Below are positions 60,038 through 62,395 of a stretch of DNA of 64,000 nucleotides, in pieces (positions within the stretch are counted from its first letter, which is position 1; each line of letters opens with the position of its first letter). The notes beneath the pieces are model-generated. The model did not search any database. It was given only the letters and a program-made list of their open reading frames with translations, and was not told where the DNA came from. Source of the stretch: Candidatus Nanoarchaeia archaeon. GTDB taxonomy: Archaea > Nanobdellota > Nanobdellia > SCGC-AAA011-G17 > GW2011-AR18. The stretch covers positions 8,814 through 72,813 of the forward strand of contig DATDZB010000009.1 of the NCBI GenBank assembly GCA_035288845.1, in the 5' to 3' direction. The translations under genes and the position numbers were made by a program.

Positions 60038-60748
60038 ATGGGACTTAAAATATATAACACTTTAACAAGAAAAATAGAAAATTTTAAACCATTAAAAGAT
60101 AAAGAAGTAAAATTATTTGTATGTGGTCCTACTGTTTATGATTTTATTCATATTGGAAATGCAAAAACATTTGTTCAATTTGATATTATAGTTAAATACC
60201 TAAGGTATAGAGGTTACAAGGTATTTTACATTCAAAACATTACAGATATAGATGATAAAATAATAAAAAAAGCTAATGAAGAAAAAGTAGATTGGAAAGT
60301 AATTTCTAGTAAATACGAAAAAGCTTTTTTAGAAGATGTAAAAAGTCTAGGAATAACTTCAGTAGATAAATTTCCAAGAGCAACAGATTACATAAAAGAA
60401 ATAGTTTCTCAAGTTAAAAGACTAATTGAAAAAGGGTTTGCTTATAAAATTTCTGATGGTTATTATTTTGACCTTTCTAAATTTAAAGAATATGGAAAAT
60501 TAGCAAAAAGAACAACTGCTGAAGGAGAAGATGCAGTTTCTAGAGTTGATGAAAATACTGAAAAAAGAAATAAAGGTGATTTCTGTTTATTAAAGTTTAG
60601 TAAAGAAGGGGAACCTTTTTGGGAAGATGTTTTAGAGTTGGAAGTTTCAAATGAAGAATACGAAAGGAGGGTTAAAGAAGCTATTGAGAAAGACGATAAA
60701 GAATTTTTAAAGTTAAATAATATAAATAAAACAAAATGGAAAAAATAA
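60038..60748 (+). CDS. cysS: cysteinyl-tRNA synthetase, N-terminal piece
   Basis: 'CGPTVYDFIHIGNAKT' (HIGH) and 'KRNKGDFCLLKFSKEGEPFWE', followed by about 35 aa of unrelated K/E-rich tail and a stop. Confidence 0.9.
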   Translation: MGLKIYNTLTRKIENFKPLKDKEVKLFVCGPTVYDFIHIGNAKTFVQFDIIVKYLRYRGYKVFYIQNITDIDDKIIKKANEEKVDWKVISSKYEKAFLEDVKSLGITSVDKFPRATDYIKEIVSQVKRLIEKGFAYKISDGYYFDLSKFKEYGKLAKRTTAEGEDAVSRVDENTEKRNKGDFCLLKFSKEGEPFWEDVLELEVSNEEYERRVKEAIEKDDKEFLKLNNINKTKWKK

Positions 60749-61609
60749 TGTTATGTAATGGTGGATGTGGAAACAAAGCCAAATATAGCGGCTGGTGTGA
60801 AATAAGATGGAGAAAAGAAAATAGAATTAGTGTTAAATGTCCGAAAGCTGAAGAAAAGAGAGGAAAAGCAATTTCAAAATATAGAATAAAAGAATCAAAA
60901 CTTGGTCTTAATCCAATGCAAAATCCACTAATATGTAAAAAAAATCATTCTATAGAAAGAAACAAAAAAGCTTCAGAATCATTAAAAAAGTTAGGAGAAC
61001 TAAAACTTTTACCTCAACAAATAGAAAGTAAATATAAAAGCAGATTAAGGTTATTAAGAATTAGAAAAGCTTTACAAAAACTTGCAGCTGAAGGAAAGTT
61101 AAATCATCAAATTGAATCATTAGAAGAAAAAAAATTACGTCATAAGAAAATATCTGAAACTGTAAAAGAATTACATGCAAAAGGAATTTATAAAAATAAC
61201 ATTCCAAAAAAAATAAAATATAAATCAAAAGTTAATGGAAAGATATACTTGCGGTCTAAATGGGAATTAGATGTTGCAAAATTTCTTGACAAGAATAATA
61301 TTTCATGGTTATACGAGCCATTTCCAGTTCCTTATTTAGACAATAATAAAGAAAAACATGTTACAATACCTGATTTTTATTTGCCAAAATATAATCTAAT
61401 TATAGAAGTTAAAGGACTAAGAAAGGATTTTATTAGTAGTTATACAATTAACAATAAAATAGAAGGAATTAAAAAAGCAGGGTTTAAGTTTTATTTATGG
61501 ATGGAAAAAGAAATTCAAATGATAAGAAAGAATAATACTAATTTATTATTAAATAGTATTAAAATCCTGGAGAATAAAAACAATGCCTAAAATAAAAATT
61601 AAATTAAAA
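60629..61609 (+). mobile_element. homing-endonuclease gene insertion splitting cysS (approximate boundaries)
   Basis: CysRS similarity stops near 60628 (..FWED) and resumes near 61610 (..RPGWHIE). The boundaries are estimated from the E. coli CysRS sequence recalled from memory. Confidence 0.5.
60736..61590 (+). CDS. free-standing homing endonuclease: Cys-rich N-terminus + NUMOD3-like repeats + PD-(D/E)xK-like nuclease
   Basis: 'NHSIERNKKASESLKKLG' and 'LRHKKISETVKELHAKG' (NUMOD3-like). C-terminal 'RSKWELDVAKFLD...WLYEP...IPDFYLP...LIIEVKG'. Confidence 0.7.
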   Translation: MEKIMLCNGGCGNKAKYSGWCEIRWRKENRISVKCPKAEEKRGKAISKYRIKESKLGLNPMQNPLICKKNHSIERNKKASESLKKLGELKLLPQQIESKYKSRLRLLRIRKALQKLAAEGKLNHQIESLEEKKLRHKKISETVKELHAKGIYKNNIPKKIKYKSKVNGKIYLRSKWELDVAKFLDKNNISWLYEPFPVPYLDNNKEKHVTIPDFYLPKYNLIIEVKGLRKDFISSYTINNKIEGIKKAGFKFYLWMEKEIQMIRKNNTNLLLNSIKILENKNNA

Positions 61610-62395
61610 TTCAGACCAGGCTGGCACATCGAAGATACAGCAATAACAGAAACATTATTAGGTCAACAATATGATTTACATGGCGGAGCAATAGATTTAA
61701 TTTTTCCACATCATGAAGCAGAAATAGCACAAATGGAAGCAATATCTGGAAAAAAACCTTTTGTAAAATATTGGTTGCATACCGGTTTCTTACAAGTAAA
61801 CAAAGAAAGAATGGGTAAATCAAAAGGAAATTTCTCAAGAGCAAGAGAAGTATTAAAAGACTATAATAAAACAGCTTTAAGATTTTTATTTTCATCTACA
61901 CATTATAGAAAACCAATTGAGTTTTCAGATGAATCTTTAGAAACAGCAAAAAATAATGCAAATAAATTAAATGAATTTTTGTTGAAATTAAATAATTACA
62001 AATCAAAATCAAAAGATAATAAAGAAATTTCTAAATTAATAAAAGAAACTAAAAATAAATTTGAAGAAGAAATGGATAATGATTTTGAAACAGCAAATGC
62101 AATAACTTCAATATTTGATTTTACTAAAAAAATAAATAAATTAATTTCAAATAATGAAATTTCAGAAAAAGATTCTAAAAAAATAAAAGAATTTATGCAA
62201 GAAATAGATTCAATATTTGGAATTTTAGAAGAAGAGATAGACGTTCCAAAAGAAATAAAAGAATTAGCTGAAGAAAGAGAAAAAGCAAGGAAAAATAAAA
62301 ACTTCAAATTAGCAGATCAATTAAGAGAAGAAATAAAATCTAAAGGTTATTATATTGATGACACAGAAACTGGAATAATAATCAAGAAATTGTAA
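61583..62395 (+). CDS. cysS: cysteinyl-tRNA synthetase, C-terminal piece
   Basis: 'RPGWHIED', '[20 protein letters not shown]', 'RMGKSKGNF' (KMSKS) and the C-terminal '[22 protein letters not shown]'. Confidence 0.9.
   Translation: [270 protein letters not shown]

What the first reader, a model, noticed from the sequence alone, without database searches (positions are those of the whole stretch)
60038..62395. Essential cysS gene split at its catalytic core by a free-standing NUMOD3/PD-(D/E)xK homing-endonuclease gene
The N-terminal piece ends its CysRS similarity at ...KFSKEGEPFWE(D). The C-terminal piece resumes at (KF)RPGWHIE... In E. coli CysRS only about six residues separate these blocks ([20 protein letters not shown]). 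Between them, in a different frame, lies a 284-aa ORF that overlaps both pieces by 13 nt and 8 nt. It has two NUMOD3-like DNA-binding repeats and a C-terminal PD-(D/E)xK-like core (SKWELD...YEP...IPDFYLP...IIEVKG). Each cysS piece has acquired its own stop or start plus a short K/E-rich or K/I-rich extension (..EEYERRVKEAIEKDDKEFLKL.. and [10 protein letters not shown]). This is the 'gene in pieces' outcome known from phage Aeh1 nrdA split by mobE. Here it affects an aminoacyl-tRNA synthetase in an archaeal chromosome. The two cysS pieces are in the same reading frame, since 61583-60038 = 1545 = 3 x 515. RNA-level removal of the insert can therefore not be excluded from sequence alone.
Basis: partly seen in the sequence, partly recalled or inferred. 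Interest (0 to 1): 0.8.

Follow-up and report, generated by a model that had tools for sequence, protein, structure and literature searches.

The report
Mobile nuclease gene splits cysteinyl-tRNA synthetase
An essential gene for charging tRNA with cysteine is cut in two by a selfish nuclease gene that seems to bring short "handle" peptides which let the two halves snap back together, and the same cassette sits at the same spot in many tiny archaea and bacteria.

Summary
cysS-N (60038-60748), a 284-aa ORF "M" (60736-61590) and cysS-C (61583-62395) overlap by 13 and 8 nt. The two pieces cover CysRS model positions 1-194 and 201-465.

M has the catalytic residues of a T7-endonuclease-I-like PD-(D/E)xK nuclease. 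It also has a Cys-rich N-terminus and helical repeats. A Pfam NUMOD3 match was not found.

More than 110 M homologues exist. All 61 fetched M-matching loci (a few are the same contig fetched twice) have the N-M-C order wherever flanks exist. They come from DPANN archaea, Omnitrophota and a CPR bacterium.

The N-piece tail and C-piece head are absent from intact relatives, which carry a 7-aa loop instead. They are conserved across phyla, under purifying selection, and predicted to form an acidic/basic beta-zipper with a helical cap.

Evidence for mobility and for separate translation:
- Intact alleles exist at 75% identity.
- The cassette and host-gene similarity patterns disagree.
- The cassette shows lower synonymous divergence than its flanks.
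- A widespread M-deleted allele is still split.

No intron or intein features were found.

The closest precedent is phage Aeh1 nrdA/mobE with its essential tails. This is a new variant: cellular, cross-domain, in an aaRS, with a different nuclease family. Nuclease activity, homing and reassembly are inferred, not shown.

The parts
60038..60622 (+). cysS-N core: CysRS residues 1-195. It holds the first half of the Rossmann fold with the HIGH-type motif (HIGN) and the CP domain, and ends at Trp195 (...EGEPFW).
   Evidence: TIGR00435 positions 1-194, 2e-65. Pfam tRNA-synt_1e 2-182. 75% identical to the uninterrupted relative P0138.
60623..60748 (+). Cassette-borne 'tail' of the N piece: 41 aa (EDVLELEVSNEEYERRVKEAIEKDDKEFLKLNNINKTKWKK) plus the stop codon. 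It comprises an acidic amphipathic strand, two helices and a loop. Its last 13 nt overlap the start of M.
   Evidence: Absent from intact alleles, which have a 7-aa loop here. Conserved in all split loci across phyla. dN/dS 0.08-0.32. AF2 gives strand 195-202 and helices 205-217 and 221-226, with 10-residue-block mean pLDDT 83-94.
60736..61590 (+). M: a free-standing endonuclease gene of 284 aa. Residues ~7-35 are Cys-rich (zinc-ribbon-like). Residues ~57-148 form three helical repeats. Residues ~160-260 form a PD-(D/E)xK nuclease domain of the T7 endonuclease I type.
   Evidence: Profile against PDB: T7 endonuclease I at 7e-6 and I-Bth0305I at 0.024. Pfam Phage_endo_I at 2.9e-5, below the cut-off. 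PHROG endonuclease, resolvase and homing-endonuclease families. AF2 pLDDT 79.5. Foldseek top hits are mainly PD-(D/E)xK nucleases. More than 110 homologues. dN/dS 0.07-0.18.
61264..61413 (+). Predicted catalytic residues of M: Glu177 (61264-61266), Asp213 (61372-61374), Glu224 (61405-61407) and Lys226 (61411-61413).
   Evidence: Invariant in the 17- and 12-sequence family alignments. The conserved motifs RSxWE, PDF and IEVKG align with the matching motifs of T7 endonuclease I. The numbering of the T7 residues (E20/D55/E65/K67) comes from my own knowledge.
61569..61572 (+). GGAG, a Shine-Dalgarno-like site 10 nt upstream of the cysS-C start codon, inside the 3' end of M.
   Evidence: Read from the sequence. 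The same GGGAG(A)AATAAAAATG is kept in the M-deleted allele L067. A role as a ribosome-binding site is inferred.
61583..61612 (+). Cassette-borne 'head' of the C piece: [10 protein letters not shown], a basic amphipathic strand. Its first 8 nt overlap the end of M.
   Evidence: Absent from intact alleles. Consensus M(K/P)K(I/V)K(I/V)KLKG in all split loci. AF2 strand 239-248, block mean pLDDT 83-91.
61613..62395 (+). cysS-C core: RPGWHIED... It holds the second half of the Rossmann fold with the KMSKS-type motif (RMGKS), the DALR_2 domain and the C-terminal anticodon-binding domain.
   Evidence: TIGR00435 positions 201-465, 6.5e-67. Pfam tRNA-synt_1e 189-300, DALR_2 and CysS_C. The fused N+C model superposes on solved CysRS structures with TM 0.90-0.91.

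Best explanation
The region is a site-specific mobile cassette inserted into cysS. It consists of three parts: a 41-codon tail plus stop codon, a free-standing endonuclease gene (M), and a ribosome-binding site, start codon and 10-codon head.

M combines a T7-endonuclease-I-like PD-(D/E)xK nuclease domain with a Cys-rich N-terminus and helical repeats that probably bind DNA.

Proposed mechanism (inferred):
1. M recognises and cuts uninterrupted cysS alleles at the highly conserved DNA encoding ...W-(7 aa)-RPGWHIE.
2. Repair from a cassette-bearing allele copies the whole cassette. The 7-codon loop is replaced and the target is destroyed.
3. CysRS is then made as two polypeptides from one translationally coupled operon.
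4. The two polypeptides reassemble non-covalently into a complete CysRS fold.
5. Reassembly is helped by the cassette-encoded tail and head. An acidic strand (EDVLELEV) pairs with a basic strand (KIKIKLKF), capped by two helices.

Shown here: the anatomy; the conservation of the catalytic residues; the strict linkage to this site; the existence of intact alleles and of M-deleted alleles; purifying selection on every part; and signs of horizontal movement.

Inferred only: nuclease activity, the target sequence, homing itself, and reassembly and activity of the split enzyme.
For: Anatomy and the clean split.

Nuclease identity. The family profile matches T7 endonuclease I (3cae, 1m0d) at E 7e-6 to 2e-4 with the catalytic motifs aligned, and the homing endonuclease I-Bth0305I at 0.024. 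The catalytic residues are invariant. Foldseek returns Vsr, I-Bth0305I, TnsA, AbaSI and Bax1. A distant relative lies between two pieces of a phage capsid gene.

Site specificity. All 25 loci and all 36 loci that match M have the cysS-N/M/cysS-C order wherever flanks exist. Carriers include Nanoarchaeota, Woesearchaeota, Aenigmatarchaeota, Omnitrophota (including the complete chromosome CP070780) and a Nealsonbacteria genome.

Presence/absence polymorphism. The intact relatives P0138 and P0148 are 73-75% identical to the window's enzyme core and read W-HTELGDS-RPGW. Other split groups are only 38-45% identical. The intact cysS-DnaB-RecR locus L030 is syntenic with the split locus L007.

Mobility. 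The M of L014 is nearest to group A (60%) while its host core is nearest to L015/L018 (60%). M is more conserved between groups (42-61%) than the host core (33-49%). In Omnitrophota, dS of M and the tail is 0.57-2.0, below saturation, while dS of the flanking cores is saturated.

Tail and head. They are conserved across phyla, with dN/dS 0.08-0.32. Every tail-bearing protein found ends right after the tail. AF2 of the fused N+C gives pLDDT 91.2, with 10-residue-block means of 83-94 across the tail/head module. The model matches solved CysRS structures with TM 0.90-0.91.

Separate translation. Start and stop codons are conserved, with 4-20 nt overlaps. The frames of the two pieces differ among loci. 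A HAD-like gene lies between N and M in L015. The M-deleted allele L067-L069 is still split, with tail, RBS and head intact. Its N piece is listed in 71 blocks of the collection.

Precedent. In Aeh1 NrdA-a/NrdA-b, tails that arose from the mobE insertion are essential for activity (PMC3045599).
Against: No experiment shows cleavage, homing, complex formation or Cys-tRNA charging.

All 61 M copies appear as single uninterrupted alignments of the available M sequence, and dN/dS is 0.07-0.18. A purely selfish element in cellular genomes would be expected to leave more decayed copies. This leaves room for a host-beneficial role.

Pfam Phage_endo_I scores 24.2, below its cut-off of 29.1. Foldseek E-values are only about 0.02.

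Pairing of the tail strand with the head strand is inferred from the secondary structure and confidence of a fused single-chain model. It does not come from a contact map or a multimer model.

The alignment behind that model had unpaired N and C rows.

I could not check whether the window's genome, or the complete genomes CP070780 and CP179891, carry a second cysS or the SepRS/SepCysS pathway.

The searches for an uninterrupted CysRS carrying the 50-aa module had limited sensitivity.
Confidence: 0.75

Rival explanations
1. M is no longer a selfish homing endonuclease. It has been domesticated, or is retained by addiction, as a stable third gene of a cysS operon. Possible roles would be a repair or defence nuclease, or a factor whose loss is penalised. 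On this view the split arrangement is now inherited mainly vertically or by transfer of the whole gene.
For: All 61 copies appear as single uninterrupted alignments of the available M sequence. M is under stronger purifying selection than its host gene, with dN/dS 0.07-0.18. M is translationally coupled to both pieces. In L007 the whole cysS is of a different type from the syntenic intact CPR allele, which suggests whole-gene replacement.
Against: M-deleted but still split alleles are widespread, so M is dispensable for the enzyme. Cassette and host similarity patterns disagree, and the cassette has lower dS than its flanks. Intact alleles sit closest to the window's enzyme. A related nuclease interrupts a phage capsid gene.
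Confidence: 0.12
2. The insert is removed at the RNA level, as an archaeal bulge-helix-bulge intron or a group I/II intron carrying an endonuclease ORF. A continuous CysRS would then be translated.
For: In the window the two pieces happen to be in the same frame. Related DPANN loci carry a separate 28-31 nt BHB-like insertion elsewhere in cysS-N. mRNA splicing in this gene is therefore conceivable in these archaea.
Against: No intron family was found at gathering thresholds or at E<=10. No helix pairs the two boundaries. The same arrangement exists in bacteria, which lack the archaeal splicing endonuclease. Frames differ between loci. The tail and head are conserved as protein, with dN/dS 0.08-0.32, which would be pointless for intron sequence. 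The stop, RBS and start are kept even when M is deleted. A second gene lies in the gap in L015.
Confidence: 0.03
3. The tail and head are the halves of a split intein, a 'fractured gene' in the sense of Dassa et al. The two pieces would be ligated by protein trans-splicing.
For: The gene order (host piece, free-standing endonuclease, host piece) is the same as in fractured genes, and half of those loci use a Vsr-like nuclease family (PMC2677866). M weakly matches I-Bth0305I, which by my own knowledge belongs to that Vsr-like family.
Against: The tail is ~30-45 aa and the head 10 aa. By my own knowledge a split intein needs roughly 100 plus 35 aa. The residue after the conserved Trp varies (E, D, A, C, S, F, T, P). 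The residue after the head is R, Y or F, never Cys, Ser or Thr, and there is no His-Asn. No Hint or intein domain was detected in the pieces.
Confidence: 0.02
4. The split cysS is a decaying pseudogene or an assembly error, and cysteine charging is done by another gene elsewhere in the genome.
For: Only 64 kb of the genome is visible. No second cysS lies in it, but the rest was not examined.
Against: Both pieces keep the class I motifs and are under purifying selection, with dN/dS 0.07-0.38. Each piece scores ~220 bits against the cysS model with no internal stops. The arrangement recurs across dozens of independently assembled contigs, including complete chromosomes. The fused model is a confident, complete CysRS fold.
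Confidence: 0.03

Closest known systems
Phage Aeh1 nrdA-a / mobE / nrdA-b 'gene in pieces' (Crona et al. 2011, PMC3045599; the original description by Friedrich et al. 2007 is cited from my own knowledge)
   Same: A free-standing homing-endonuclease gene sits inside the catalytic region of an essential enzyme gene, with no intron or intein. The two pieces are translated separately. Unique C- and N-terminal tails that arose with the insertion are needed to restore function. The authors proposed this as a possible general way to neutralise fragmentation.
   Different: The Aeh1 case is a single phage genome with an HNH-family endonuclease (mobE; family per PMC2790892). The case here uses a PD-(D/E)xK, T7-endo-I-like nuclease with a different DNA-binding part. 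The host gene is an aminoacyl-tRNA synthetase in cellular chromosomes. The cassette occurs in more than 100 protein clusters spanning archaea and bacteria. The tails are conserved across all of them and are predicted to form one small folded module. An endonuclease-deleted but still split stage also exists. Nothing here has been tested biochemically.
'Fractured genes': split intein plus free-standing Vsr-like (EDxHD) homing endonuclease (Dassa et al. 2009, PMC2677866)
   Same: The order is host-gene piece, free-standing endonuclease gene, host-gene piece. The nuclease belongs to the PD-(D/E)xK superfamily, and M weakly matches I-Bth0305I. Control elements come in with the endonuclease gene.
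   Different: The pieces here have no intein halves and no splicing residues, so reassembly must be non-covalent. Fractured genes are mainly found in phages and in DNA-metabolism enzymes.
T7 endonuclease I (Pfam PF05367; PDB 1m0d, 3cae)
   Same: The nuclease domain of M aligns with its catalytic core, and all four catalytic positions are conserved.
   Different: T7 endonuclease I is a ~150-aa structure-specific Holliday-junction resolvase with no site specificity. M is 284 aa and adds a Cys-rich N-terminus and helical repeats. It scores below the Pfam cut-off. It is tied to a single genomic site.
Naturally split aminoacyl-tRNA synthetases of reduced genomes, such as Nanoarchaeum equitans AlaRS alpha/beta (PMC11392972; reviewed in PMC6349945)
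   Same: An aaRS of a DPANN archaeon is encoded as two polypeptides that must associate.
   Different: By my own knowledge, the two N. equitans genes lie apart in the genome, with no endonuclease between them and no known cause for the split. Here the pieces are adjacent and the agent of the split is still in place. Intact, occupied and endonuclease-deleted stages are all observable.

Membership tests
Free-standing homing endonuclease gene that splits a host gene (genes-in-pieces type) | The ORF has a DNA-endonuclease fold with its catalytic residues intact. | tested here: met
   The profile matches T7 endonuclease I at 7e-6 with the conserved catalytic motifs aligned. These residues are invariant in the family. 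Foldseek hits are mainly PD-(D/E)xK nucleases, with E about 0.02.
Free-standing homing endonuclease gene that splits a host gene (genes-in-pieces type) | The insert lies within a conserved host coding sequence and is not embedded in an intron or intein. | tested here: met
   The break falls between cysS model positions 194 and 201. No Rfam intron was found. No boundary helix was found. No intein residues are present.
Free-standing homing endonuclease gene that splits a host gene (genes-in-pieces type) | Homologous alleles differ in presence or absence of the insert at one fixed site. | tested here: met
   All 61 fetched loci with M have it at this site wherever flanks exist. Intact alleles exist at 73-75% identity. 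Syntenic intact (L030) and split (L007) loci exist.
Free-standing homing endonuclease gene that splits a host gene (genes-in-pieces type) | The element shows evidence of horizontal movement independent of the host gene. | tested here: met
   The identity patterns of M and of the host core disagree. dS of M and the tail is lower than the saturated dS of the flanks in Omnitrophota. This evidence is indirect; no formal tree test was made.
Free-standing homing endonuclease gene that splits a host gene (genes-in-pieces type) | The enzyme cleaves the empty allele site-specifically and is copied in by gene conversion. | not testable with these tools
   This requires purified protein and an intact cysS substrate.
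Free-standing homing endonuclease gene that splits a host gene (genes-in-pieces type) | The split products reassemble into an active enzyme, and the tails are required. | not testable with these tools
   Only indirect evidence is available: purifying selection, a confident fused model, and persistence of the split without M.
Pfam PF05367 Phage_endo_I / PD-(D/E)xK superfamily | The score reaches the Pfam gathering threshold. | tested here: not met
   24.2 bits against a cut-off of 29.1, covering only residues 171-228. M is homologous to the family at superfamily level but is not a formal member.
Pfam PF05367 Phage_endo_I / PD-(D/E)xK superfamily | The E...PD...(D/E)xK catalytic motif sits on an alpha/beta core. 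| tested here: met
   E177, D213, E224 and K226 are invariant. AF2 predicts strands and helices across residues 160-264 with block mean pLDDT mostly 81-93.
NUMOD3 DNA-binding motif (Pfam PF07460) | The sequence matches the profile. | tested here: not met
   No NUMOD3 hit at E<=1 in the Pfam scan. Only a by-eye resemblance of three helical repeats remains.
Split intein / fractured gene | A conserved Cys/Ser at the first intein residue, and a terminal His-Asn followed by Cys/Ser/Thr. | tested here: not met
   The residues at both junctions vary and lack nucleophiles. The tail is 30-45 aa and the head 10 aa.
Archaeal BHB intron or group I/II intron with an endonuclease ORF | An RNA structure defines the splice sites. 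| tested here: not met
   No Rfam match. No pairing between the boundaries. The arrangement is also present in bacteria.
Cysteine--tRNA ligase (TIGR00435) | The full-length model is covered, with the class I motifs and the CysRS fold. | tested here: met
   The N piece covers 1-194 (221.7 bits) and the C piece covers 201-465 (226.6 bits). Each alone is below the 340-bit cut-off, but together they cover the model. The fused model has TM 0.90-0.91 to 8qhp and 1li5.

The most novel reading that the evidence does not exclude
The tail-stop / endonuclease / RBS-start-head unit is one evolved, self-contained mobile element. It carries its own non-covalent 'reassembly handles', so it can invade an essential single-copy gene without killing the host. 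This would be a splicing-free functional analogue of an intein or intron. It has spread across the archaea-bacteria boundary among small-celled groundwater lineages (DPANN, CPR, Omnitrophota). When the endonuclease is later deleted, it leaves permanently split genes. That would offer a concrete, observable route to the unexplained split genes of reduced archaeal genomes.
Probability: 0.5. Interest if true: 0.8.

Novelty: new variant of a known kind. Interest (0 to 1): 0.7.

Why it matters
Until now the 'tails instead of splicing' solution to gene fragmentation by a homing endonuclease rested, as far as I and the searched literature know, on one phage gene (Aeh1 nrdA).

Here the same logic appears in cellular chromosomes, in an aminoacyl-tRNA synthetase, and with a different nuclease family. 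It occurs in more than a hundred diverged copies from both prokaryotic domains.

Three stages can be observed: empty allele, occupied allele, and an endonuclease-deleted allele that is still split.

This has three consequences:
1. It turns an anecdote into a comparative system.
2. It gives a testable mechanism for how split essential genes arise and persist in reduced genomes.
3. It provides a natural, compact pair of peptides (about 40 aa and 10 aa) that may drive reassembly of a split enzyme. Such a pair is of practical interest for split-protein engineering.

It also warns annotators. These loci are currently labelled 'class I tRNA ligase family protein' plus 'hypothetical protein', and they could be mistaken for pseudogenes or frameshifts.

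Tried and rejected
1. Group I/II or other intron. Rfam found nothing in the region at gathering thresholds or at E<=10 on 60400-61800.

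2. BHB-type boundary helix. The inverted-repeat scan of 60560-61680 found no pairing between the two junctions beyond AT-rich noise.

3. Split intein. The junction residues were inspected in 16 loci and there are no nucleophiles.

4. An uninterrupted CysRS carrying the 50-aa module. The junction-fusion query returned only intact fragments without the module, or separate pieces. An exhaustive phmmer search with N residues 175-236 gave 16 hits. Every true hit ends right after the tail. Two longer hits that extended into the tail region were fetched and are unrelated repeat proteins. Sensitivity was limited.

5. The search for related loci with the 17-sequence alignment failed because no block was conserved enough. 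It was repeated with 12 sequences.

It was redone with unpaired database rows, so co-variation between tail and head could not inform the model.

7. Looking up the exact M protein of the window in the contig index found nothing, although NCBI holds the identical protein.

8. Literature searches for split CysRS/cysS with a homing endonuclease found nothing.

9. A tblastn search of phage genomes found only the nuclease domain of M (residues ~170-282), never the full architecture.

10. The promoter/terminator scan was uninformative for an archaeal, 27%-GC region.

Full report
**What is there**

The window is a 25-31% GC stretch. The NCBI name of the identical middle protein assigns it to a Candidatus Nanoarchaeia (DPANN) archaeon. 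It also has one 131-nt tRNA that Rfam finds and ARAGORN misses, which fits an intron-bearing archaeal tRNA.

- 60038-60748, 236 aa, called N here.
- 60736-61590, 284 aa, called M here.
- 61583-62395, 270 aa, called C here.

They overlap by 13 nt and 8 nt.

N matches the cysS equivalog model TIGR00435 over positions 1-194. C matches it over 201-465. Pfam splits the catalytic domain in the same way and finds DALR_2 and the CysS C-terminal domain in C. There is no second cysS in the window.

**The middle ORF**

M has three parts:
- A Cys-rich N-terminus (CxGGCG...WC...CP).
- Three helical repeats with an (N/P)(H/Q)(S/Q)xE(S/R) signature.
- A C-terminal domain carrying RSxWE...PDF...IEVKG.

Pfam gives only a sub-threshold Phage_endo_I hit (24.2 bits, cut-off 29.1) and no NUMOD3 hit. 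PHROGs give endonuclease, resolvase and homing-endonuclease families down to 6e-16.

A profile of 12 family members matches solved T7 endonuclease I structures at 7e-6 to 2e-4, with the conserved catalytic motifs aligned. It matches the homing endonuclease I-Bth0305I at 0.024. E177, D213, E224 and K226 are invariant in the family.

The AF2 model has pLDDT 79.5. Its best Foldseek hits are mainly PD-(D/E)xK nucleases: Vsr, I-Bth0305I, TnsA, AbaSI, Bax1 and RecE. Their E-values are only about 0.02.

Phage genomes share only the nuclease domain of M.

M is therefore a PD-(D/E)xK nuclease of the endonuclease-I type with its own DNA-binding module. Activity is inferred from residue conservation.

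**It is a family tied to one site**

More than 110 protein clusters cover M nearly full length at 40-73% identity. I fetched 25 loci by exact-protein look-up and a GTDB scan, and 36 more from metagenomes. A few of these loci are the same contig fetched twice.

In every one, tblastn finds cysS-N, M and cysS-C in that order on one strand. The only exceptions are loci where the contig ends.

Carriers are Nanoarchaeota, Woesearchaeota, Aenigmatarchaeota and other DPANN-like MAGs. Three are Omnitrophota, including a complete chromosome, and their gene context is clearly bacterial. One is a Nealsonbacteria genome.

This rules out mis-assembly. It also shows that the shared frame of N and C in the window is a coincidence, since frames differ elsewhere.

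**The tail and head**

Uninterrupted close relatives read ...EPxW-(7 aa)-RPGWHIED. P0138 is 75% identical to the window's enzyme core and P0148 is 73% identical.

At the DNA level the window replaces those 7 codons with three things: 41 tail codons plus a stop, then M, then a start plus 9 further head codons.

Both segments are conserved in all split loci across phyla:
- Tail, roughly x-x-(V/I)-(F/L)-E-(I/M)-E-V-(S/T)-D-E-E-Y-E-K-L-V-K-E-A-I-x-N-N-D-E-E-F-L-K-L-N.
- Head, M-(K/P)-K-(I/V)-K-(I/V)-K-L-K-G.

Their dN/dS is 0.08-0.32, like the enzyme cores at 0.07-0.38.

Every tail-bearing protein that I could find stops right after the tail. I found no uninterrupted CysRS with this module, though the searches were not very sensitive.

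An AF2 model of N fused to C is confident (pLDDT 91.2, pTM 0.88). It predicts the following:
- Tail residues 195-202 (EDVLELEV) as a strand.
- Two helices at 205-217 and 221-226.
- A loop at 227-238, where the break lies.
- Head residues 239-248 (KIKIKLKF) as a strand.
- Ten-residue-block mean pLDDT of 83-94 throughout this module.

The model superposes on solved CysRS structures with TM 0.90-0.91.

An acidic amphipathic strand next to a basic amphipathic strand suggests a charge-complementary beta-zipper. I infer the pairing, because I could not inspect contacts.

**Not splicing**

- Rfam finds no intron family, even at E<=10.
- No helix joins the two boundaries.
- The residues at the two junctions vary and include no conserved Cys, Ser or Thr and no His-Asn. 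The tails are also far too short for a split intein.
- The arrangement works in bacteria.
- In L015 a 202-aa HAD-like gene sits between N and M.

The most telling case is a Woesearchaeota allele whose N piece is listed in 71 blocks of the collection. It has lost M except for its last ~7 codons. It keeps the tail, the GGAG site, the ATG and the head, with N and C overlapping by 8 nt. The gene therefore stays split, and presumably functional, without M.

**Mobility**

The CysRS cores fall into four groups. The window's group is closest to intact enzymes (73-75%) and far from the other split groups (38-45%).

M is more similar between groups (42-61%) than the host cores are (33-49%).

L014's M is nearest to the window's group (60%), while its host core is nearest to L015/L018 (60%).

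In Omnitrophota, synonymous divergence of M and the tail is 0.57-2.0, below saturation. That of the flanking cores is saturated.

An intact cysS-DnaB-RecR locus in a CPR bacterium is syntenic with the split Nealsonbacteria locus.

A distant relative of M lies between two pieces of a T4-type capsid gene on a phage-like contig.

These points together indicate repeated insertion of the cassette into different cysS lineages, that is, homing or something equivalent. The evidence is indirect, and I made no formal tree test.

**Mechanism proposed**

M cuts empty cysS alleles at the conserved W...RPGWHIE coding DNA. Repair copies in the cassette and destroys the site. The operon is translated as three coupled ORFs. 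N and C reassemble through the native interface of the two Rossmann halves and through the cassette-borne zipper.

The site lies at the junction of the CP domain and the second Rossmann half. From my own knowledge of work on split class I synthetases, this is a region known to tolerate breaks.

All steps after the anatomy are inferred.

**Comparison with what is known**

The nearest precedent is phage Aeh1. There mobE split nrdA, and tails that arose with the insertion are essential for activity. The authors suggested this might be a general way to neutralise fragmentation (PMC3045599).

'Fractured genes' share the gene order and a PD-(D/E)xK-superfamily nuclease, but they use split inteins (PMC2677866).

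Split aaRS genes of N. equitans are known, but no agent of the split is associated with them (PMC6349945; PMC11392972).

Full-text searches found no report of a split cysS or CysRS with a homing endonuclease.

I therefore class this as a new variant of a known kind. The principle is the same. The differences are the nuclease family, the cellular and cross-domain hosts, an aaRS as the target, a conserved co-mobilised tail/head module, and an observable post-endonuclease stage.

**Weak points**

- There is no biochemistry.
- The uniformly uninterrupted M copies leave room for a domesticated role; I give that rival 0.12.
- The presence of a second cysteine-charging route in the carriers was not checked.
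- The zipper is a model inference.

**Scores**

- Interest: 0.7.
- Confidence in the main explanation: 0.75.

Noticed in passing
L015 2389-2560; L018 2946-3120; L017 3252-3430; L025 1218-1400 (also L043, L045, L064): In several DPANN split-cysS loci the N piece carries a further 28-31 nt frame-shifting insertion between CGP and (T/A/S)VYDxxHIGN. The ends of the insertion are conserved (GGGCCA|AAC...TTGGGCAT|). The consensus fold is helix(4 bp)-3-nt bulge-helix(3 bp)-3-nt bulge-hairpin, with two compensatory pairs. That is a bulge-helix-bulge-like topology, so this is a candidate mRNA intron. Removing it restores CGP(T/A/S)VY in frame. It is not present in the window.
   Followed up: partly
L067-L069, 3001-4498: This cysS allele has lost the endonuclease but is still split. 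The N piece (239 aa, ending ...FLKLNSINKKFGRNKNA*) overlaps the C piece ([18 protein letters not shown]...) by 8 nt. Only the last ~7 codons of M and the RBS remain. The N protein is listed in 71 blocks of the collection.
   Followed up: yes
L015 3148-3756 and 3758-4936; L018 3662-4933; L019: In one DPANN group a 202-aa HAD-like hydrolase gene lies between cysS-N and M. In that group M carries an extra ~100-aa N-terminal extension of unknown function, giving proteins of 392-423 aa.
   Followed up: no
L026 2316-4970; L027: A distant relative of M (P0117, 280 aa) lies between a 94-aa and a 276-aa piece of a T4 Gp23-like major capsid gene, with ~320-375 nt gaps on each side. This may be another split or intron-interrupted gene caused by the same nuclease superfamily.
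   Followed up: no
L007 2225-3127: The 'Nealsonbacteria' genome CP179891 has a gene with Zn-ribbon and TFIIB Pfam domains next to the split cysS. Its neighbours are otherwise bacterial genes (DnaB, RecR, DnaX). This is odd for a bacterium. It may reflect archaeal gene transfer or a mislabelled genome.
   Followed up: no
window 61613-61636 (RPGWHIED): The window's CysRS and its closest intact CPR/DPANN relatives have Asp where most CysRS have Cys (GWHIEC). By my own knowledge this is a zinc ligand, Cys209 in E. coli. The other split groups keep Cys. This variation is unrelated to the split.
   Followed up: no
window 53221-53351 (-): Rfam finds a tRNA 131 nt long (51.8 bits) that ARAGORN does not call. 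It is probably an intron-containing archaeal tRNA.
   Followed up: no
window 58412-59899 (-): A leucyl aminopeptidase (M17-like) gene lies divergently upstream of cysS-N. The Woesearchaeota locus L001 has the same neighbour, so the split locus is syntenic between these two DPANN genomes.
   Followed up: partly
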